A stretch of 64,000 nucleotides of DNA from Rhizobiaceae bacterium (GTDB taxonomy: Bacteria > Pseudomonadota > Alphaproteobacteria > Rhizobiales > Rhizobiaceae), in NCBI GenBank assembly GCA_965232405.1, contig OZ246966.1, positions 1,417,731-1,481,730 on the forward strand. Reading direction: 5' to 3'. Below, one piece after another: positions 55,315 through 62,842 of the stretch. The first letter of the stretch is position 1. Each line of letters starts with the position of its first letter. The position numbers and the translations under genes were made by a program. The notes under the pieces were generated by a model. The model made no database searches, was not told where the DNA came from, and saw nothing but the letters and a program-made list of their open reading frames with translations.

Positions 55315-57462
55315 CTATGCCGCCGCGTCACCGGCAACGCGCGGCCTGCCCTGAGCGGTGGCGAGAATGCGCGCCTCGACGAACTGACGCCGATCCTCGA
55401 CTGTCGCGGCGTCGATGCTGGTTTCCACGTCGACGAAACAGTCTCCTGCGCCGGCGAGCCGGGCGCTCACCAGAGCCTGTTCGCGCGCCATGCGTGTCGC
55501 CGTCTCCACCGCTTCATCTTCGGCCCCGAAGTCCTCGACATGATCCCCGACAACAAGCCGGAAGCAGCCCTCGTCCGGCTGGGTAACGACAGCCTCGACG
55601 CCGATGCGAACCTGGCCGACCACCGCGCCCACGGCGTTGGCGACATCGGCATGAGCGGGCAGGATGCAATCACTGCCGACGAGCGGGCCAAGCGCCGCAT
55701 AGTGCAGCGGTGCCGATGCGCCGAGCCCGATGACCGGACGGTCGAGGCTCATGGCGAGCTGCGCGAAACGGGACTTGCCGTCGAGCGTGCGCTGGACCAG
55801 CGCGTGAGAGACAGCAGCCTCGGCGTCGTGGCCATCCTCGGCGAGTGCTGTTTCCAGTATCGCCTCGGCCGATCTGCGTGTGAGTAGCGCCAGCACGCGT
55901 TCCGACAGGGCTTCTCCGGACTGCGCAATGCGGTTTCCCTTGAGGTCGCGCCTCAGTGCGACAAGTTCCGCGCCGAGGCGGGCGGCTTTCGCATCCCAGT
56001 TGGACTGGCGGCCAAGCACGTGGGCGGCGTCGGATGGCGTGAAGCCGCATATCAGAACCAGACCCCGGGCAACGAGCCGGGCGAGCACGGCGGTCTGCGA
56101 ACCGCCCGTCAGCAGCCGGTCGAGCGGGATTGGTGTTTCGGGAATGTCGGCGAAGAGCCGCGCCTCGATCGAAGTCAGGCCGGCTGCGAAACGCTCGGGC
56201 AGGCCGGCGCGCATGGCAAATCGGCCGTCGAGACGGCCGGGATTGGCCGCACCCGCCTGACGCTCCAGCGGGCCGGTGATCGCATCGCCATGCAGCTTCG
56301 AGGCCAGCGACAGCGGCACCAGGCGGCGGGGACCAAGGCGCAGTCCGGCTTCGAGCCGGCTATCGTCGACAGCCACTTCGGAATCGCCGCCCAGCCCGAA
56401 GGTGCGCATGGCGACGGCTTCCACATGGGTGCGCATGCCGCCGACGCGGGCGCCTTCGGGATCGAGGCGCGGACGACCACCGTCCAGCAGTGCGACGTCG
56501 GTCGTGGTGCCGCCGATGTCGGAGACGAAGGCGGCGTCGAGACCGGTGAGATGGCGCGCGCCGATGATGGAAGCAGCGGGGCCGGACAGGATGGTCTCGA
56601 TGGGCCGCTGGCGGGCGAAGGCTGCCGAGACCAAAGCGCCATCGCCACGGACGACCATGAGGGGTGCGCGTATTCCTCGCGCATCCAGAAACCCTTCCGT
56701 TGCGGCGATGAGGCGGTCGATCAGGCCGACAAGGCGGGCATTGAGAAGTGTGGTCAGCGCCCGGCGCGGACCGCCAAGCTTGGCGGAGAGTTCGTGGCTT
56801 GCGGTGACCGGCAGACCGGTCGTTTCGCGGATCAGATCAACGGCTGCGATCTCGTGGGCAGGGTTGCGGACGGCGAAATAGGCGCAGACGGCAAAACCGG
56901 TGACGGTTTTGGCCAGCTTCGGCAGCGCCTGTTCGAGCGGCGAAAGGTCCAGCGGCCTGGGGTTGCCGTGCCCGTCATGCCCGCCGGGCACGAACACCAC
57001 CGGGTCTTCGCCGAGTGCTGTCTTCAGCCCGTCGCGGTCGAGATCGGCCTCGCCGAAGCCGATCATGACGAGCGCGGCGCGCCCGCCCTGCCCCTCCACA
57101 ATGGCGTTGGTCGCCAGTGTGGTGGACATGGAGACCAGCGCTACCTTGGCCGGGTCGGCTTTTGCCTCGGCCAGAACCGCATCCGCCGCGTCGGCGATGC
57201 CCACCGCCAGATCGTGTCGGGTGGTCAGGGCCTTGGCCTTGGCGACGACCTCGCCGCTCCCCTGCCCTCCGCTAGGGCTCCGGGCGTTCGTCGCTTCAAT
57301 CGACAAATCGTTGTCGATTGACCGGCCTCCGGCCGACCGCTCCTCACCCTTGGCAACGACCTCGCCGCTGCCCGAACCGTCTCGGTACAGAACCGCGTCG
57401 GTGTAGGTGCCGCCGGTGTCGATGCCGAGCATCAGCGGGGCGGAAGGCGTCCTGGCGTGCAT
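55315..57462 (-). CDS. Hydantoinase/oxoprolinase N-terminal family protein, carrying a 37-aa insertion
   Basis: GIDTGGTYTD, SGPAAS, DIGGTTTD, GLGGDS. Confidence 0.9.
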   Translation of the reverse strand: MHARTPSAPLMLGIDTGGTYTDAVLYRDGSGSGEVVAKGEERSAGGRSIDNDLSIEATNARSPSGGQGSGEVVAKAKALTTRHDLAVGIADAADAVLAEAKADPAKVALVSMSTTLATNAIVEGQGGRAALVMIGFGEADLDRDGLKTALGEDPVVFVPGGHDGHGNPRPLDLSPLEQALPKLAKTVTGFAVCAYFAVRNPAHEIAAVDLIRETTGLPVTASHELSAKLGGPRRALTTLLNARLVGLIDRLIAATEGFLDARGIRAPLMVVRGDGALVSAAFARQRPIETILSGPAASIIGARHLTGLDAAFVSDIGGTTTDVALLDGGRPRLDPEGARVGGMRTHVEAVAMRTFGLGGDSEVAVDDSRLEAGLRLGPRRLVPLSLASKLHGDAITGPLERQAGAANPGRLDGRFAMRAGLPERFAAGLTSIEARLFADIPETPIPLDRLLTGGSQTAVLARLVARGLVLICGFTPSDAAHVLGRQSNWDAKAARLGAELVALRRDLKGNRIAQSGEALSERVLALLTRRSAEAILETALAEDGHDAEAAVSHALVQRTLDGKSRFAQLAMSLDRPVIGLGASAPLHYAALGPLVGSDCILPAHADVANAVGAVVGQVRIGVEAVVTQPDEGCFRLVVGDHVEDFGAEDEAVETATRMAREQALVSARLAGAGDCFVDVETSIDAATVEDRRQFVEARILATAQGRPRVAGDAAA
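57237..57369. repeat. Palindromic insertion flanked by 22-bp direct repeats inside the hydantoinase gene
   Basis: CCTTGGC(g/a)ACGACCTCGCCGCT at 57237-57258 and 57348-57369; inner palindrome TCAATCGACAA-atcg-TTGTCGATTGA at 57296-57321. Confidence 0.85.
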
Positions 57463-58101: not shown

Positions 58102-58267
58102 GGCATGGATCCCCCGGGTCAAGCCCGAGGATGACGACCGGGAGGGGGCCACCGCAAATCATCAGCCGCAGAGAGTTCCATCAAGCGGCGATTTCGGCAC
58201 GGCGATGGAGACTGGCGGAATGCATATCCACTTCGTCATCCTCGGGCTTGACCCGGGGATCCATGCC
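58102..58267. repeat. Inverted pair of REP-like palindromes
   Basis: GGCATGGATCCCCCGGGTCAAGCCCGAGGATGACG (58102-58136) and its reverse complement with one C fewer (58234-58267). Confidence 0.85.
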
Positions 58268-58304
58268 TGACCGTCGCCGCTTCACCTGCATATCAGTCAC
58301 TCGC

Positions 58305-58766
58305 GCTTCATCGTTGCCACGCCCGCCGAAGCGTCTGGCCGTTGCACAGCGCCGTTTCGCGAAGATCGCTGCGCGATCTCGCGGGGCGCTTTCGCGACGA
58401 TCACTGCGTGATCGCGCTATCGCCAGAACCCTATGGGGTTCGGCGTAGGAAGACGGGCGGCCGTTCAGTCGCTCATCTGTAGGTTACGCGCGACCAAAAG
58501 GCCGCCCGTCCGGTGTTCTTGCCCCGAGTACCTCTTTCGAGGTCACCTGACCGCCTTATGTCAGGATATTGTCCGCTCGTGGCTCTCCGCAGCTTTCGCC
58601 TCAGAGGCCGGGCTGGCCACCAATCAAGAGGCCAAGACACAGCTACCCGTGGGCCCGGAGCTGGGGGCTCATCGCCCAGCAGCACCACCGTAGTGCTGCC
58701 GATCCGGCACCGTCCCTGCCACGCTCGCCCGGTTCGCGACCCGCGTTCCCGTGCAGGAGATGAAGC
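58305..58766 (-). ncRNA. Candidate large structured non-coding RNA or non-autonomous repeat element (~460 nt)
   Basis: At least 7 hairpins, GAAA and cUUCGg loops and G-U pairs all favour the minus strand; termini GCTTCATC/GATGAAGC pair; TATCCT just upstream. Confidence 0.6.
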
Positions 58767-59179
58767 AAGGATAAGGGAGATTCAGAGGGCGGGGATAGAT
58801 TTTTTTGGAGGGGCGCGGGAAGACTCGCGAGAGAGATCGAGTGTCCCCTTGGGGAAGGCATTACGCAGCAGTCACCTACGGAATCGCCAACACTATGGCA
58901 TAATGACATATTTATATCTGAAATTTGCAATAATGTCAGTATAGTAGACCCATTCTGCAGTGCAGCGAGAATCGGTTGCGCTGCAATATTTGCAAATGGC
59001 AAAGAATCGGCTTAATGATTGATGCCAGTGGTGCCTGAATGCTGAGTTCAATGCCACTGGGAGGATAGTAGTAAGTTATTGATTTTTAAGAATGTTTTTG
59101 GCGCTCGGTAAATTGAAGCTTTCCGGGCGGGGAGTATTTCTTGACTCCGGTTTCTACTTAGCCCATCAGACAAATGTCC

Positions 59180-59325
59180 AAACAAAGAAACCGCCGCGAA
59201 GCTGGCGAGCCGGCGACGGTTTCCACGTTGACACCCGCACAGACTGAGCGTCGGGCGCGGGCGTATGGCTTTGTAGTACACTGATGTTGAATCAGAATAG
59301 CACGCTATGGTCAAGCCCGACGGTC
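59180..59325 (-). ncRNA. Candidate sRNA or structured leader divergent from the DUF1508 gene
   Basis: Minus-strand 11-bp hairpin GAAACCGTCGC/GCGGCGGTTTC + TTTGTTT, plus a CCCGCGC/GTGCGGG stem. Confidence 0.4.
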
Positions 59326-59353
59326 GCTAACGCCAAGTAAGGGAGATACCCCA

Positions 59354-59563
59354 ATGGCACAGCGTACCTTTCCTTCGTACTGGTTGTACAAGGACAATCG
59401 TGGCGAGTGGCGATGGAGCTACGAAGCCAGTAACGGCAGAACCATCGCTGTAAGTAGCGAAAGCTACAAACGTCGTGTCGATGCCGAACGCAGCATCGAG
59501 ATCATGCGGGAGTCGGCCAACAGTCCGACTTGGTATCCTGCAGATCTTGAGAACGCGGCTTAG
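59354..59563 (+). CDS. YegP/DUF1508 (UPF0339) family small protein, 69 aa
   Basis: YKDNRGEWRW...ASNGRTIAVSSESYKRRVDAERSI motif; SD GGGAG. Confidence 0.88.
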   Translation: MAQRTFPSYWLYKDNRGEWRWSYEASNGRTIAVSSESYKRRVDAERSIEIMRESANSPTWYPADLENAA

Positions 59564-59577
59564 GCCGCTCCTGGGGA

Positions 59578-59601
59578 TAGGTCGGTCGTTAGACCGGCCT
59601 A
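59578..59601 (+). terminator. Intergenic hairpin between DUF1508 gene and downstream ORF
   Basis: TAGGTCGGTC-gtta-GACCGGCCTA then TTT. Confidence 0.55.
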
Positions 59602-59632
59602 TTTCAGCGTGTTCCTAATCGAGAGAAAACCA

Positions 59633-60301
59633 ATGCCAAACTTCGGAATATCCGCATTCTTGCGGATCGTTCATATGAACGTTCGGCCCCAAAGGACTGA
59701 GCTGCGGAAACGAAGTGAGCCGCGCGACGGAGGTGGTTATGATTTCCACAATAGCCTTCGTCGCTTGGCAAATCGGATGATTATCGAAGGTGTACCCTTG
59801 GATGAGGTCCTAGCTGACGCGGCTCTTATTGTTAAGGAAGCGGAACGAAATTCTGCACGGCAAGGCTTGAGGCGCCTAAGCGCCTGGAGCGCCGAGAATG
59901 CAGGTGAGATTCTTAACTTTCAAAGTGTTTCGGTCCAAAGCCCCGATCGTCGTTTCTCGGTGACATATAAGCCAAACTTTGGACTGCGTTTCGGCCGAGA
60001 GGCAATTGCTATACATATTTGGAACACGGCAAGGCCGCGACTCGAAAATCGCATCGTCCGTGCTGTTCTCTCTCAATTTGCCGAGAGTTATCGCGATGCT
60101 GAGACAGCGCCCGATGATATCGCCGTGCTCTGCCTCCGAACGATGAGACTTATTCGGTTGGGTAATTCTGCTGAGTTTGCCGACCTAGGCCGGCTGATCA
60201 TGACGCACACAGATCAGACCCTTGCCGAAATCGCGAGCGACGACGGGCACCCGCCAGTACCTCCAGATGATCGGCCCGGCATACGGCCGCCCGGAGAATA
60301 G
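59633..60301 (+). CDS. Uncharacterised 222-aa protein
   Basis: Clean ORF with GAGAG SD before ATG 59633 in an AT-richer islet; no confident family. Confidence 0.8.
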   Translation: MPNFGISAFLRIVHMNVRPQRTELRKRSEPRDGGGYDFHNSLRRLANRMIIEGVPLDEVLADAALIVKEAERNSARQGLRRLSAWSAENAGEILNFQSVSVQSPDRRFSVTYKPNFGLRFGREAIAIHIWNTARPRLENRIVRAVLSQFAESYRDAETAPDDIAVLCLRTMRLIRLGNSAEFADLGRLIMTHTDQTLAEIASDDGHPPVPPDDRPGIRPPGE

Positions 60302-60370
60302 AAATTGGCTACCAGCCATCCATGTTAGACAATGACCGAATCGACGCCCTCCGCGCTTGAGTCGCGAGTA

Positions 60371-60478
60371 TGGGCACGCTGGCGGGACTTGAACCCGCAT
60401 CTCTCCGCTTGTACATTCACGATGTTCAGACGTGATGCCTTAGTGAAACAGAGGCTCTTCCAATTAAGCTACAGCGCG
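60371..60478 (-). ncRNA. tRNA-like RNA (108 nt) with canonical acceptor/D/T arms, encoded CCA and 39-nt anticodon loop
   Basis: Acceptor CGCGCTG/CAGCGTG+C+CCA; U8 A9; D arm GCTT-AATTGGAA-GAGC; anticodon stem TCTGT/GCGGA; variable GAGAT; T arm GCGGG-TTCAAGT-CCCGC. Confidence 0.85.
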
Positions 60479-60904
60479 TTTCCTTTGTGACTGTCGGATT
60501 AGGTAATCAACATCGGTTTCCGCAAGTTTCGATAGCTTGATGACGAGCGGATTTGGGTCAAGATAAGTTGCACCATCGGGCGCCTTAACGGGCGCCAACA
60601 ACTTAAGGTGCTCAAGCTGGGCAATGCTCCTTTGAACGGTACGCGGACTTGTTCCCATGCGTTTTGCGATAATCGACGAGCGCGGAAAGGGCTTTTGTTC
60701 CGCGTACCACCAGTGCATGAGCACATTAAGCAAGACAACCAAGTCCGTAGCCGACAACTCAAGCGTCTTTTGATGCTTCAAAAGTAAATCTGGAACGGCT
60801 TGGAACCCGGCATCTGCCGCCTTTCCCCACTTTTCGGAAATGCGCGGACCGCCGGATTCAATCTTTGCCGAGCCCAACTCGCTATTTGGATCAATCGATT
60901 TCAT
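60464..60904 (-). CDS. Winged helix-turn-helix protein (DnaD-N/HTH_36-like, mobile-element type), 146 aa
   Basis: GFQAVPDLLL, VLLNVLMHWW, PFPRSSIIAKRMGTSPRTVQRSIAQLE HTH. Confidence 0.85.
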   Translation of the reverse strand: MKSIDPNSELGSAKIESGGPRISEKWGKAADAGFQAVPDLLLKHQKTLELSATDLVVLLNVLMHWWYAEQKPFPRSSIIAKRMGTSPRTVQRSIAQLEHLKLLAPVKAPDGATYLDPNPLVIKLSKLAETDVDYLIRQSQRKRAVA

Positions 60905-60949
60905 ACCAAAATATTAACAGAACCGATTACCAAAATCAAGATATCTGTT
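60904..60949 (-). promoter_or_regulatory. Putative leaderless sigma70 promoter of the wHTH gene with flanking inverted repeat
   Basis: TTGATT-N17-TAATAT-tttggt-ATG; no SD; AACAGA/TCTGTT inverted repeat at 60916-60921 and 60944-60949. Confidence 0.55.
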
Positions 60950-61036
60950 TAACAACGCGGCGCCTGTGTCGCTTTTTCTGACGTACACGACATTTCGATC
61001 AAGAGTCGTCGGCTTGCCTAGGCGTACCCAGCGGGC

Positions 61037-62842
61037 CTAATCGCCCATCTTCAGCGCTTCGATGAACGCCGCCTGGGGGATTTCCACGCGGCCGAACTGG
61101 CGCATCTTCTTCTTGCCCTCTTTCTGCTTCTCCAGCAGTTTTCGTTTACGCGTCACGTCGCCGCCATAACATTTGGCAGTGACGTCCTTCCTGAGGGCCG
61201 CGATGGTTTCGCGCGCGATGACCTTGCCGCCGATCGCCGCCTGGATCGGGATCTTGAACATGTGGCGGGGGATAAGGTCCTTCAGCTTCTCGCACATGGC
61301 GCGGCCGCGCTTTTCCGCCGCCTGGCGATGGACCAGCATGGAGAGCGCATCGACCGGCTCCTCGTTGACGAGGATCGACATCTTGACGAGGTCGCCCTCG
61401 CGGTAGCCGGTGAGCTGGTAGTCGAAGCTGGCGTAACCGCGTGAGATGGACTTCAGCCGGTCGTAGAAATCGAACACCACCTCGTTGAGCGGCAGATCGT
61501 AGGTGAGCATGGCGCGGGCGCCGGCATATGACAGGTCGTGCTGAATGCCGCGGCGCTCCTGGCAGAGCGTGAGGATGGAGCCCAGATAATCGTCCGGCGT
61601 GAGGATGGTGGCGCGGATCCACGGCTCCTCGATCGAGGCGATCTTGACCACGTCGGGCATGTCGGCCGGGTTGTGCAGCTCCAGCGTGGAGCCGTCGGTC
61701 ATCAGCATGCGGTAGACGACGGAAGGCGCGGTGGCGATCAGGTCGAGGTCGAACTCGCGCTCCAGCCGTTCCTGGATGATCTCCAGGTGAAGCAGGCCGA
61801 GAAAGCCGCAGCGGAAGCCGAAGCCGAGCGCTGCCGAGGTCTCCATCTCGAAGGAGAAGCTGGCGTCGTTGAGCCGCAGCTTGCCCATCGCGGCGCGCAG
61901 ATCTTCGAAATCGGCGGCATCGACGGGGAACAGGCCGCAGAACACCACCGGCTGGGCCGGCTTGAAGCCCGGCAGCGGCGTGGTGGTGGGGCGGCGCTCG
62001 TCGGTGATGGTGTCACCCACGCGCGTGTCGGCTACCTCCTTGATGGAGGCGGTGATGAAACCCAGCTCGCCGGGGCCGAGCTCGCCGGTCAGCACCATTT
62101 TGGGCGTGATCACGCCGACGCGGTCGACAAGATATTTGGCGCCGGTGCCCATCATGCGGATCTGCTGACCCTTTTTCAGCTTGCCGTCGACGATGCGGAC
62201 CAGAACGATGACGCCGAGATAAGAGTCGTACCAGCTGTCGACCAGCATGGCCTTCAGCGGGGCGTCAGCGTCGCCCTCCTTCGGCGGCGGCAGCTTCTTG
62301 ACGATTGCTTCCAGCACGTCGGGGACGCCCTTGCCGGTCTTGGCCGAGATCATCACCGCGTCGGACGCGTCAAGGCCGATGACGTCCTCGACCTGCTCCT
62401 TGATGCGCTCGGGCTCGGCGGCGGGCAGGTCGACCTTGTTCAAGACGACCACGATCTCGTGGTCGGCATCGAGCGCCTGATAGACATTGGCCAGCGTCTG
62501 CGCCTCGACGCCTTGGCTAGCGTCGACCACCAGCAGCGAACCCTCGCAGGCGCGGAGCGAGCGGGAGACCTCATAGGCGAAGTCGACATGGCCGGGCGTG
62601 TCGATGAGGTTCAGCACATAATGCTCGCCGTCGGCGGCATCATATTCGAGGCGCACGGTGTTGGCCTTGATGGTGATGCCGCGCTCGCGCTCGATGTCCA
62701 TGGCGTCGAGCACCTGCTCCTTCATCTCGCGCTCTTCCAGCGAGCCGGTCATCTGGATGAGCCGGTCGGCCAGCGTCGACTTGCCGTGGTCGATATGGGC
62801 AACGATGGAGAAGTTGCGGATGTTTTTGAGAGGCGTGGTCAT
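61037..62842 (-). CDS. lepA: Elongation factor 4
   Basis: [42 protein letters not shown]. Confidence 0.98.

What the first reader, a model, noticed from the sequence alone, without database searches (positions are those of the whole stretch)
60371..60478. tRNA mimic with intact elbow but a 39-nt anticodon loop
All elbow determinants are present: 7-bp acceptor (one G-U), U8, A14, A15-U48, G18G19, A21, 4-bp D stem, G53-C61, UUCAAGU T-loop, 5-nt variable loop and encoded CCA. The anticodon stem (two G-U) closes 39 nt, 32 more than normal, containing its own stem CATCACG/CGTGAATG. Removing 32 nt gives UU-UAC-AA or UU-CAC-AA, Val either way; the first has a U|...G| junction like group I introns but is far too short to self-splice. 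C1-G72 with C73 does not fit usual Val identity (A73). Best reading: a non-decoding tRNA mimic (decoy, RNase P substrate or protein scaffold) or a tRNA with an unknown mini-intron.
Basis: partly seen in the sequence, partly recalled or inferred. Interest (0 to 1): 0.92.

Follow-up and report, generated by a model that had tools for sequence, protein, structure and literature searches.

The report
Arginine-tRNA-shaped RNA fused to regulator gene
The 108-base element is real and belongs to an apparently undescribed, anciently conserved family of arginine-tRNA-derived RNAs that carry an extra hairpin beside the anticodon and sit against the end of a small DNA-binding-protein gene on plasmids, phage-like contigs and defence islands; its function is still unknown.

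Summary
On the minus strand at 60371-60478 lies a complete tRNA cloverleaf (Rfam tRNA, 41.3 bits) whose anticodon stem encloses 39 nt containing a hairpin.

It is neither a chance match nor a decaying pseudogene. I found 17 more members: S. meliloti plasmid pRm1132f, an Aureimonas conjugative plasmid, Devosia, Haliea, MAGs, metagenome contigs and two viral contigs.
- In an alignment of the window copy with 16 of them, 90% of stem cells pair, against 43-50% when partners are slid, and 15 of 22 pairs show double changes.
- A model built without the window copy scores it 73.6 bits, against 48.9 for the best ordinary tRNA in its genome.

The Val reading is wrong. The family derives from tRNA-Arg: A20, U34 and C35 are invariant, and the triplet is UCU or UCG in 15 of 17 (UCA here).

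The 'loop' is really a 4-7-nt bulge displaying the anticodon, plus a covarying hairpin inserted at 37/38.

Sixteen of the 18 members directly follow a DnaD-N-like winged-helix gene. That gene's stop codon lies inside the RNA in eight, including this copy.

The family is rare (3 of 401 alphaproteobacterial genomes) and lies in mobile elements and defence islands. The genome already has all Arg and Val tRNAs and no RtcB.

Best reading: a functional, non-decoding tRNA-Arg mimic coupled to the regulator gene. No RNA data could be found, so function and processing are inferred.

The parts
60371..60478 (-). tRNA-Arg-derived tRNA-like RNA, 108 nt including the encoded C73-CCA
   Evidence: Rfam tRNA 41.3 bits. 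Family model R1 97.7 bits. Leave-one-out model R2 73.6 bits.
60472..60478 (-). Acceptor stem 5' strand (RNA positions 1-7). It also encodes the wHTH C-terminal residues R-A-V.
   Evidence: Sequence. Acceptor pairs covary in the family: 6 of 7 pairs have double changes.
60454..60469 (-). D arm (positions 10-25) with G18, G19 and A20. A20 is the main ArgRS determinant.
   Evidence: A20 is invariant in all 17 aligned members. Arg identity rules from PMC9976931.
60448..60452 (-). Anticodon stem 5' strand UCUGU (positions 27-31)
   Evidence: All six anticodon-stem pairs covary in the family.
60438..60447 (-). 5' bulge UUCACUAAGG holding the anticodon-like U34-C35-A36. Family consensus is U-U-C-[U/G]-A.
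   Evidence: Member arms folded. Alignments.
60414..60437 (-). Inserted hairpin ('helix II'): CAUCACG, 9-nt loop UCUGAACAU, CGUGAAUG
   Evidence: MFE fold. Every member has a hairpin here. In most members it starts directly after position 37 and its first base pairs differ in sequence between members. In the window copy about 5 unpaired nt (UAAGG) intervene.
60404..60413 (-). 3' junction UACAA plus anticodon stem 3' strand GCGGA
   Evidence: A semi-conserved (G/A)UA motif lies at this junction across members.
60382..60398 (-). T arm GCGGG-UUCAAGU-CCCGC
   Evidence: 100% of cells paired in the family, and 3 of 5 pairs have double changes.
60371..60381 (-). Acceptor 3' strand CAGCGUG, discriminator C73, encoded CCA
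   Evidence: N73-CCA is encoded in 8 of 18 members.
60464..60904 (-). Winged-helix gene (146 aa, HTH_36 / DnaD_N). Its last five codons, including the stop, are RNA positions 1-15.
   Evidence: ORF. Pfam. Profile match to the DnaD N-domain structures 2vn2/2v79, E 1e-8, over nearly the whole length. More than 186 homologues.
60464..60466 (-). wHTH stop codon UAA, equal to U13-A14-A15 of the tRNA-like RNA
60306..60318 (-). Weak terminator-like hairpin 53 nt downstream of the CCA end
   Evidence: Consensus scan only. pRm1132f and Aureimonas have clear terminators at the equivalent place.
58804..61038 (.). About 2.2-kb variable islet holding the module, between a repeat element and the lepA 3' end
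   Evidence: No DNA match in any of 11 same-genus genomes, while both flanks match. Lower G+C, 0.56-0.58.

Best explanation
The element is a functional, non-decoding tRNA-like RNA descended from tRNA-Arg. It forms a conserved two-part module with the DnaD-N-like winged-helix (wHTH) gene immediately upstream. The module is carried by mobile elements and defence islands.

Proposed working:
1. The gene and the RNA are made as one transcript (inferred from a gap of +16 to -42 nt in all 16 wHTH-linked members, and from terminators after the RNA).
2. The RNA folds into a normal tRNA L-shape (shown by covariation and by retention of U8, A14, G18G19 and the T-loop).
3. Its anticodon arm is prolonged by a hairpin inserted at position 37/38. 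The triplet U34-C35-N36 is therefore displayed as a short bulge on a long rigid arm, not in a 7-nt loop (shown comparatively).
4. Such an arm cannot work in the ribosomal decoding site (inferred).
5. RNase P would cut at position 1, releasing the RNA (inferred; not testable here).
6. In this copy that cut removes the last five codons of the wHTH mRNA, including its stop. Release of the RNA and completion of the protein from one transcript would then exclude each other, and the cut mRNA would be a trans-translation substrate (inferred).
7. The family keeps A20, U34 and C35 invariant and alternates only between the two Arg triplets UCU and UCG. This suggests the released RNA is recognised as 'tRNA-Arg' by ArgRS or another tRNA-Arg-specific protein. 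It would act as a mimic (decoy, sensor or cofactor) rather than an adaptor (inferred, weakest step).
For: Family and structure:
- The same module occurs on S. meliloti plasmid pRm1132f.
- 17 further long members were found.
- Cloverleaf counts over the window copy and 16 of them: 90.1% of cells paired against 43-50% with partners slid; 15 of 22 pairs with double changes; 0 of 500 shuffles reach the observed values.
- The leave-one-out model scores the window copy 73.6 bits, against 48.9 for the best ordinary tRNA of the genome.

Arg origin:
- 27 of 28 best ordinary matches are tRNA-Arg(UCU).
- The own-genome ranking is Arg tct, tcg, cct, ccg.
- A20, U34 and C35 are invariant; position 36 is U or G in 15 of 17.
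- Arg identity rules are A20, C35, U/G36 and A/G73 (PMC9976931).

Architecture:
- A bulge plus a hairpin with differing, complementary first pairs in each member.

Linkage to the wHTH gene:
- The wHTH stop lies from -16 to +42 relative to RNA position 1. It is the UAG formed by U8-A9-G10 in six members.
- wHTH and RNA divergence are correlated: Mantel r = 0.54, 0 of 5000 permutations reach it, with proteins down to 14% identity.
- The RNA type is spread over all major wHTH clades.

Not needed for decoding:
- The genome has a full tRNA set including five Arg and three Val genes.

Context:
- Mobile-element or defence surroundings in the other loci.
- The islet is absent from 11 congeners.
Against: - No transcript, end-mapping or aminoacylation data could be obtained for any member. 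Expression, RNase P cleavage, CCA status and charging are all inferred.
- The window copy departs from the family consensus where it matters most for the Arg-mimic idea. Its bulge is UUCAC-UAAGG (A36, C37) and its discriminator is C73, not the A/G73 of tRNA-Arg. This copy may not be an ArgRS ligand.
- In 8 of the 16 wHTH-linked members the stop codon lies 5-16 nt upstream of the RNA. The 'non-stop mRNA' coupling therefore cannot be the family's general mechanism.
- Two members (L109, L177) lack the wHTH gene.
- The closest wHTH relatives of this copy carry a different 3' RNA structure instead.
- No sigma-70-type promoter was found.
Confidence: 0.6

Rival explanations
1. It is a true tRNA-Arg gene interrupted at position 37/38 by a short protein-spliced (or otherwise excised) hairpin intron. 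After removal, a normal 7-nt anticodon loop would form and the tRNA would decode AGA or CGA for the mobile element.
For: - In most members the hairpin starts exactly after A37, the canonical archaeal/eukaryal intron site. Deleting it leaves U32-U33-U34-C35-[U/G]36-A37-N38.
- Tails consistent with tRNA 3' ends (N73-CCA) are encoded in 8 of 18 members.
- Phage tRNA arrays hold many tRNAs with 20-76-nt inserts in the anticodon region.
- 'Enigmatic introns' have been reported in Lak megaphage tRNAs (bioRxiv 10.1101/356790).
Against: - There is no bulge-helix-bulge motif: one 5' bulge only, with the hairpin stacked directly on the stem.
- It is too short for group I, and Rfam gives no intron match.
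- The genome has no RtcB ligase.
- The window copy would give UUCAC.. with C37 and anticodon UCA, which is not a usable Arg loop.
- The triplet switches between codon boxes (UCU and UCG) without any matching shift of AGA/CGA use in the linked gene.
- The host already has tRNA-Arg UCU and UCG.
Confidence: 0.15
2. The family is functional, but this particular copy is a relic. The islet is a remnant of a mobile element, and the RNA here has begun to lose the features the family needs (bulge consensus, A37).
For: - The islet has no integrase, relaxase or replication gene.
- The bulge deviates from U-U-C-[U/G]-A, and the 3' junction has extra unpaired bases.
- No promoter-like site and only a weak terminator.
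Against: - All four tRNA stems, the tertiary-contact nucleotides and the hairpin are intact.
- The wHTH ORF is intact and 63-69% identical to its best homologues.
- The leave-one-out score of 73.6 bits is in the range of other members.
- Another member (Haliea) also has UCA.
Confidence: 0.15
3. It is an anti-defence or defence component: a tRNA-Arg-shaped pseudo-substrate that binds (and blocks, or reports on) an anticodon nuclease or other tRNA-Arg-directed enzyme. This is a specific version of the mimic idea.
For: - Neighbours in other loci are defence genes: Shedu plus a BsuBI-type restriction enzyme, HEPN, SIR2, DndB/GmrSD-N, Gabija-like OLD plus UvrD, BamHI R-M, AAA_21.
- Other carriers are plasmids and viral contigs.
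- U34-C35 is displayed in a bulge next to the 38/39 region, which tRNA-Arg-specific nucleases such as colicin D are known to cut (from my own knowledge, not tested).
Against: - No conserved nuclease or other partner besides the wHTH gene.
- PADLOC has no model matching the window's wHTH protein or its islet neighbours.
- Defence islands collect many unrelated genes, so the context is weak evidence.
Confidence: 0.12
4. It is an ordinary decaying tRNA pseudogene, an integration scar (att site remnant) or a chance cloverleaf.
For: - ARAGORN does not call it by default.
- The fold z-score is only -1.6.
- It lies in a variable islet next to a repeat element.
Against: - Compensatory changes occur in 15 of 22 stem pairs across 17 aligned members.
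- It co-diverges with the adjacent gene down to 14% protein identity.
- A complete copy sits on a free plasmid.
- There is no partial repeat of it elsewhere in the genome.
Confidence: 0.02

Closest known systems
Bacterial tRNA-Arg (UCU/UCG isoacceptors)
   Same: - D arm GUAGCUCA..GGAUAGAGC with A20.
- U33-U34-C35-[U/G]36-A37.
- T arm, 5-nt variable region, often an encoded CCA.
- The family models rank tRNA-Arg first among ordinary tRNAs.
   Different: - A 25-45-nt hairpin after position 37 turns the anticodon loop into a bulge.
- The discriminator is mostly C73 instead of A/G73.
- Pair 1-72 is often mismatched.
- The gene overlaps or abuts a protein-coding gene.
'Enigmatic introns' in tRNAs of Lak megaphages and other large phages (Devoto et al., bioRxiv 10.1101/356790)
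   Same: - Short non-group-I inserts in the anticodon region of tRNA genes carried by mobile genomes.
- The mechanism is unknown.
- I saw many such genes in IMG/VR tRNA arrays.
   Different: - Those sit in tRNA arrays, affect many isotypes and have no wHTH gene nearby.
- One large group shares an ACAGCAA motif that is absent here.
- The present family is one Arg-derived lineage tied to one gene family.
RNase P-processed regulatory RNAs of mobile elements (P4 CI RNA; P1/P7 C4 antisense RNA)
   Same: Works-like analogy only: small RNAs of phage-plasmids cut out of longer transcripts by tRNA-processing enzymes (from my own knowledge).
   Different: - Those act by antisense pairing. No local antisense target was found for this insert.
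- They are not full cloverleaves.
tRNA-like domains of tmRNA, bacterial Y RNA (YrlA) and plant-virus TLS; pseudo-tRNAs such as B. cereus tRNA-Other
   Same: tRNA mimicry used for something other than ordinary decoding, with elbow determinants retained.
   Different: - tmRNA has a tag ORF and Ala identity. The genome's own two-piece tmRNA is elsewhere.
- YrlA is permuted and linked to Rsr.
- TLS elements are viral 3' ends with pseudoknotted acceptors.
- None has an Arg anticodon bulge or a wHTH partner.
arfA mRNA of E. coli (stop codon removed by RNase III; product controlled by trans-translation)
   Same: Possible analogy for the eight members whose stop codon lies inside the RNA. Processing would create a non-stop mRNA (from my own knowledge).
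   Different: - The processing enzyme here would be RNase P.
- The coupling is absent in about half of the family.
- Nothing is tested.

Membership tests
Canonical tRNA (Rfam RF00005) | Score at or above the curated gathering threshold with the full cloverleaf | tested here: met
   41.3 bits against 29, model positions 1-71.
Canonical tRNA (Rfam RF00005) | 7-nt anticodon loop closed by a 5-bp stem | tested here: not met
   39 nt lie between the stem strands. ARAGORN default gives no call.
   The homologous triplet is UCU/UCG/UCA. The discriminator is C73. No Val tRNA is among the seven best-scoring ordinary tRNAs of the own genome under R2; four of those seven are Arg, the others Met, His and Pro.
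tRNA-Arg | A20 in the D loop | tested here: met
   Invariant in 17 of 17 aligned members, including the window copy. Rule from PMC9976931.
tRNA-Arg | C35 with U36 or G36 | tested here: inconclusive
   C35 is present in 17 of 17. U/G36 is present in 15 of 17, but the window copy has A36.
tRNA-Arg | Discriminator A73 or G73 | tested here: not met
   C73 in the window copy and in most members.
tRNA-Arg | Arginylation by ArgRS | not testable with these tools
   Needs an in vitro charging assay or acid-urea gels.
Group I intron in a tRNA anticodon loop | Ribozyme core (P3-P9), usually 200 nt or more; Rfam Intron_gpI match | tested here: not met
   The insert is about 32 nt. No Rfam match other than tRNA.
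Archaeal/eukaryal protein-spliced tRNA intron | Bulge-helix-bulge (3-4-3) or relaxed equivalent at the splice sites | tested here: not met
   A single 5' bulge, with the hairpin stacked directly on the anticodon stem, in most members.
Archaeal/eukaryal protein-spliced tRNA intron | RtcB-type ligase available in the host | tested here: not met
   PF01139 is absent from the own genome; the control rang in 10 of 14 reference genomes. Other ligases were not searched.
tmRNA | Tag reading frame and Ala-type acceptor (G3-U70) | tested here: not met
   ARAGORN finds the genome's tmRNA elsewhere. The pair here is C3-G70.
wHTH-linked tRNA-Arg-like RNA (family defined here) | Scores above ordinary tRNAs with a model built without it | tested here: met
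   R2: 73.6 bits against 48.9 or less.
wHTH-linked tRNA-Arg-like RNA (family defined here) | Lies directly 3' of a DnaD-N/HTH_36 gene (gap of 16 nt or less, or overlap) | tested here: met
   The stop codon is at RNA positions 13-15. The protein is homologous to the partners in the other loci.
wHTH-linked tRNA-Arg-like RNA (family defined here) | Bulged U34-C35 followed by a hairpin between position 37 and the 3' stem strand | tested here: met
   This copy is a variant: a longer 5' bulge and 2-5 unpaired nt at the 3' junction.
tRNA pseudogene | Stems decay at random in homologues | tested here: not met
   90% of cells paired and 15 of 22 pairs with double changes.

The most novel reading that the evidence does not exclude
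The module is a new kind of RNA-protein switch of mobile elements. A tRNA-Arg mimic is carved by RNase P out of the 3' end of a regulator's mRNA. Synthesis of the DnaD-like wHTH protein then depends on the state of the cell's tRNA-processing and trans-translation machinery. The released mimic, with its Arg anticodon shown as a bulge next to A20, engages ArgRS or a tRNA-Arg-directed nuclease. That would make it a built-in sensor of, or decoy for, attacks on tRNA-Arg.

A neighbouring possibility that is also not excluded: the hairpin is the first protein-spliced (non-group-I) tRNA intron type in Bacteria.
Probability: 0.15. Interest if true: 0.88.

Novelty: new variant of a known kind. Interest (0 to 1): 0.72.

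Why it matters
tRNA mimicry is known from tmRNA, viral 3' ends and Y RNAs. An old, structurally constrained tRNA-Arg derivative that shows its anticodon as a bulge, and that is physically fused to the end of a regulator gene on plasmids, viral contigs and defence islands, is not in Rfam. I could not find it in the literature.

It gives a concrete and small experimental system: pRm1132f is a 7.2-kb plasmid of a laboratory rhizobium. Three questions become testable:
- what expanded-anticodon-arm tRNAs of mobile elements do
- whether bacteria can excise short tRNA inserts
- whether tRNA processing can gate the expression of a neighbouring gene

A sister clade of the same gene family carries a second, unrelated conserved RNA structure at the same place. 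This suggests that the 3' RNA, whatever its form, is integral to how these genes work.

Tried and rejected
- **RNA evidence.** The three RNA runs I laid that share the species label held no read on the stretch, and only the DNA assembly run holds it. No RNA run holds the TARA or Aureimonas members.
- **Paralogue origin.** No related tRNA or partial copy exists in the own genome.
- **att-site or scar idea.** There is no repeat of the 3' half, and a complete copy sits on a free plasmid.
- **Antisense target near the module.** The longest complementarity of the insert to 1.5 kb on either side is 7-11 nt, no better than shuffles.
- **Codon link.** AGA/CGA use in the wHTH genes does not follow UCU versus UCG.
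- **Conserved neighbours.** None beyond the wHTH gene.
- **Defence-system models.** PADLOC, PHROGs and NCBIfam give nothing specific for the wHTH protein or the islet ORFs.
- **Same-genus synteny.** The islet is absent from all 11 relatives.
- **Literature.** Searches on pRm1132f, tRNA-like/HTH, pseudo-tRNA and phage tRNA introns found only the Lak-phage report. Barran et al. 2001 on pRm1132f is not held.
- **Structure prediction of the wHTH protein.** I did not repeat it, since the sequence profile already matches the DnaD N-domain.
Full report
**1. What is there**

The window comes from a 3.87-Mb single-contig genome that looks alphaproteobacterial: it has a two-piece tmRNA with tag ANDNYAEARLAA.

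- a 7-bp acceptor stem (G2-U71), with C1-G72, C73 and an encoded CCA
- U8, A14, A15/U48, G18G19 and A21
- a 4-bp D stem, G53-C61, T-loop UUCAAGU and a 5-nt variable region
- a 5-bp anticodon stem that encloses 39 nt containing the hairpin CAUCACG/CGUGAAUG

Rfam's tRNA model matches it end to end at 41.3 bits (threshold 29), with the extra bases treated as an insertion in the anticodon loop. ARAGORN ignores it by default. In intron mode it gives an arbitrary reading, 'SeC(uca)' with a 34-nt intron.

The genome has 49 ordinary tRNA genes, including Val CAC/GAC/UAC and five Arg isoacceptors. There is no paralogue or partial copy of this element elsewhere in the genome.

**2. It belongs to a conserved family**

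A blastn search of plasmids hit only S. meliloti pRm1132f, a 7.2-kb rolling-circle, MOBV plasmid. There a helix-turn-helix gene is followed after 3 nt by a 108-nt tRNA-like sequence, also with a ~33-nt insert in the anticodon loop. The upstream proteins of the two loci are homologous: 38% identity, E 1e-16.

I then searched outward from the protein family, which has more than 186 homologues, mostly alphaproteobacterial. Sources were species-representative genomes, metagenomes and IMG/VR, plus a covariance model (R1).

This gave 17 further long members of 106-123 nt:
- pRm1132f and an Aureimonas phyllosphaerae conjugative plasmid
- a Devosia MAG and Haliea (a gammaproteobacterium)
- several soil MAGs and marine contigs
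- two anonymous alphaproteobacterial genomes
- two viral contigs

On a plain MAFFT alignment of 17 members:
- 90.1% of stem cells form standard pairs, against 43-50% when the partners are slid by 1-3 columns
- 15 of 22 pairs show changes on both sides
- none of 500 shuffles reaches the observed values

G-U pairs are common on this strand, so the structure is strand-specific, as expected for an RNA.

A model built from 17 other members without the window copy (R2) scores the window copy 73.6 bits. The best ordinary tRNA of the same genome scores 48.9.

**3. It is Arg-derived, not Val**
- Under R1, 27 of the 28 best-scoring ordinary tRNAs in 400 other alphaproteobacterial genomes are tRNA-Arg(UCU).
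- Under the independent R2, the four best ordinary tRNAs of the own genome are Arg tct, tcg, cct and ccg.
- The D arm GUAGCUCA..GGA(U)AGAGC matches the host's tRNA-Arg genes, not its tRNA-Val genes.
- A20 is invariant in all 17 aligned members. A20 is the main determinant for bacterial ArgRS (PMC9976931).

Directly after the 5' strand of the anticodon stem the members read U-U-C-U-A, U-U-C-G-A or, in one subgroup, A-U-C-G/U-N. U34 and C35 never vary. Position 36 is U or G in 15 of 17 and A in two: the window copy (UUCAC) and Haliea (UUCAA).

UCU and UCG are both Arg anticodons but belong to different codon boxes. That pattern fits selection for 'being recognised as tRNA-Arg' better than selection for reading one codon. 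AGA and CGA usage in the linked genes does not track the triplet. Against a simple ArgRS story, the discriminator is mostly C73 rather than A/G73.

**4. The '39-nt loop' is a bulge plus a hairpin**

I folded the arm of every member. They share one architecture:
- a 6-7-bp anticodon stem, usually including a 32-38' pair
- a 4-7-nt bulge on the 5' side holding U33-U34-C35-N36-A37
- a second helix that in most members starts right after position 37 and ends right before the 3' strand of the anticodon stem, capped by a variable loop

The first pairs of that helix differ between members while staying complementary: CGUA/UACG, CGGU/AUCG, CAUG/UAUG, CGAC/GUCG, GUGU/AUAC, GGUG/UACC.

One subgroup (pRm1132f, L043, L045, L053, L054) has GAA opposite AGUA inside the helix. 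By eye this resembles a loop-E/sarcin-ricin motif; I did not test it.

The window copy is a variant. It has a longer 5' bulge (about 5 unpaired nt, UAAGG, before the hairpin), 2-5 unpaired bases at the 3' junction, and an 8-bp hairpin with a 9-nt loop. An anticodon held in a bulge on a prolonged arm should not fit the ribosomal A site, so the RNA as transcribed is very unlikely to decode.

**5. It is part of a module with a DnaD-like winged-helix gene**

In 16 of the 18 members the RNA directly follows a 104-188-aa gene carrying HTH_36 and DnaD_N. The family profile matches the DnaD N-terminal domain structures 2vn2 and 2v79 over almost its whole length, E 1e-8.

The stop codon lies between 16 nt upstream of RNA position 1 and 42 nt inside the RNA:
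- in six members it is the UAG formed by U8-A9-G10
- in the window copy it is UAA at positions 13-15
- in one member it is a UGA at positions 40-42
- in eight members it lies 5-16 nt upstream

No other neighbour is conserved.

Protein divergence and RNA-body divergence are correlated: Mantel r = 0.54, with 0 of 5000 permutations as high. Proteins reach 14% identity while the RNA bodies stay at 55-93%. On a protein tree the tRNA-like type occurs in all major clades. The association is therefore old.

Two members lack the wHTH gene:
- L109, where a DndB-like gene ends 7 nt upstream and, as in the window, lepA is the next gene
- a viral contig, L177

**6. A second RNA type at the same place**

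The closest protein relatives of the window's wHTH (63-69% identity) have no tRNA-like element. Across nine loci, the 3' end of the ORF is instead embedded in another structure:
- a closing stem GGAGA/UCUCC
- two hairpins with GUCCA(A/C)A loops
- the stop codon between the hairpins
- a terminator after the structure

In an alignment of eight of them, 18 of 32 pairs show compensatory changes. Rfam has no match. On the tree this type forms a derived cluster next to the window copy. Whatever the RNA does, a structured RNA overlapping the end of the gene appears integral to this gene family.

**7. Context**

In the window, the module lies in a ~2.2-kb lower-GC islet (58804-61038) next to the lepA 3' end. 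All 11 same-genus genomes lack it, while both flanks are conserved. The islet has no integrase or relaxase. Its other ORFs are a DUF1508/HVO_2922-type small protein and unknowns.

Elsewhere the module sits in:
- a TrwC/TraG/ParA conjugative plasmid
- positions next to a relaxase or a coupling protein
- positions next to IS3 transposases
- positions beside Shedu plus a BsuBI-type enzyme, HEPN, SIR2 with a phage terminase, or AAA_21 plus DUF927

wHTH relatives with the second RNA type sit between a Gabija-like OLD/UvrD pair and a BamHI R-M system.

The family is rare: 3 of 401 sampled alphaproteobacterial genomes.

**8. Mechanism**

Shown:
- a conserved L-shape-compatible cloverleaf
- an Arg-type D loop and triplet
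- the bulge-hairpin arm
- tight linkage to, and co-divergence with, the wHTH gene

Inferred:
- co-transcription, supported by terminators after the RNA in pRm1132f and Aureimonas and a weak one here
- RNase P cleavage at position 1
- 3' maturation and CCA
- recognition by ArgRS or another tRNA-Arg-specific protein

In the eight overlapping members, an RNase P cut would strip the stop codon from the wHTH mRNA. This resembles the way arfA is controlled through trans-translation, but it cannot be general. I found no local antisense target for the insert.

The intron alternative is not excluded for the family. The hairpin sits at the canonical 37/38 site, and short inserts are common in phage tRNA arrays (Lak phages). 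Four things count against it here:
- there is no bulge-helix-bulge motif
- the genome has no RtcB
- the window copy would give a poor loop
- the host already has the tRNAs

No RNA-seq could be brought to bear.

**9. Novelty**

Rfam 15 has only the generic tRNA match. Literature searches found nothing on this family. The nearest published observation is the 'enigmatic' tRNA introns of Lak phages.

Earlier notes of this scan describe other phage-borne tRNA-shaped RNAs with replaced anticodon arms. They are unverified leads, but they suggest a wider class.

I rate this a new variant of a known kind (tRNA mimics). Its existence, conservation and ancestry are well supported. Its function is open.

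Noticed in passing
L181:2924-3068, L182:2918-3062, L183:2915-3059, L184:1262-1406, L042:6367-6511, L051:6382-6526, L046:6416-6560, L055:6301-6445: A second conserved RNA structure overlaps the 3' end of wHTH genes that lack the tRNA-like element. It has a closing stem GGAGA/UCUCC, two hairpins with GUCCA(A/C)A loops, the stop codon between the hairpins, and then a terminator. In this eight-sequence alignment 18 of 32 pairs have compensatory changes (a ninth, divergent copy is in L041), and Rfam gives no match.
   Followed up: partly
L116-L180 (IMG/VR), e.g. L123:30-483, L138:9854-10102, L142:9566-10314, L150:6586-12614: Large-phage tRNA arrays hold many tRNA genes of different isotypes with 20-76-nt inserts in the anticodon region. 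One big group shares an ACAGCAA motif. No wHTH gene is nearby. These probably correspond to the 'enigmatic introns' reported for Lak phages.
   Followed up: partly
L119:1994-2096(-), L127 (arm ACUGC-CUUCUCAUUCC...GAGAGAA-GCAGU): Phage tRNA-Arg(UCU) genes with a 24-26-nt insert that base-pairs with the anticodon itself. This architecture differs from the bulge-plus-hairpin family.
   Followed up: no
L109:4988-8284 (anonymous alphaproteobacterial genome G376): A family member lies 7 nt after a DndB/GmrSD-N-like gene instead of a wHTH gene, and abuts the 3' end of lepA. lepA is also the neighbour in the window, so the lepA 3' flank may be an insertion hot spot.
   Followed up: no
window 58233-58803: An ORF-poor stretch of about 460-570 nt is a dispersed repeat. 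There are at least four further copies in the same genome at 69-83% identity, and copies in congeners. It forms the inner border of the islet.
   Followed up: partly
window 57261-57352: An element of about 90 nt inside the hydantoinase-family gene is also a dispersed repeat, with copies elsewhere in this genome and in congeners at 80-92% identity.
   Followed up: no
own genome G000:C1:1110900-1111307 (outside the window): A tight cluster of tRNA genes (Gly-UCC, Arg-UCG, Gln-UUG, Pro-UGG) plus a fifth Rfam tRNA match at 1110900-1110972 (63.9 bits) that ARAGORN does not call.
   Followed up: no
window 59354-59563 (+) and 59609-60301 (+): A small DUF1508/HVO_2922-family protein is followed by a 230-aa protein with no family match. 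The pair converges on the tRNA-like RNA inside the same islet.
   Followed up: partly
A4 alignment columns 1/120: Pair 1-72 of the acceptor stem is mismatched in 7 of 17 members. Two members (Aureimonas, and viral L177 from the A7 alignment) share A1xC72 and G2xA71. The true 5' ends may differ from the tRNA convention.
   Followed up: no
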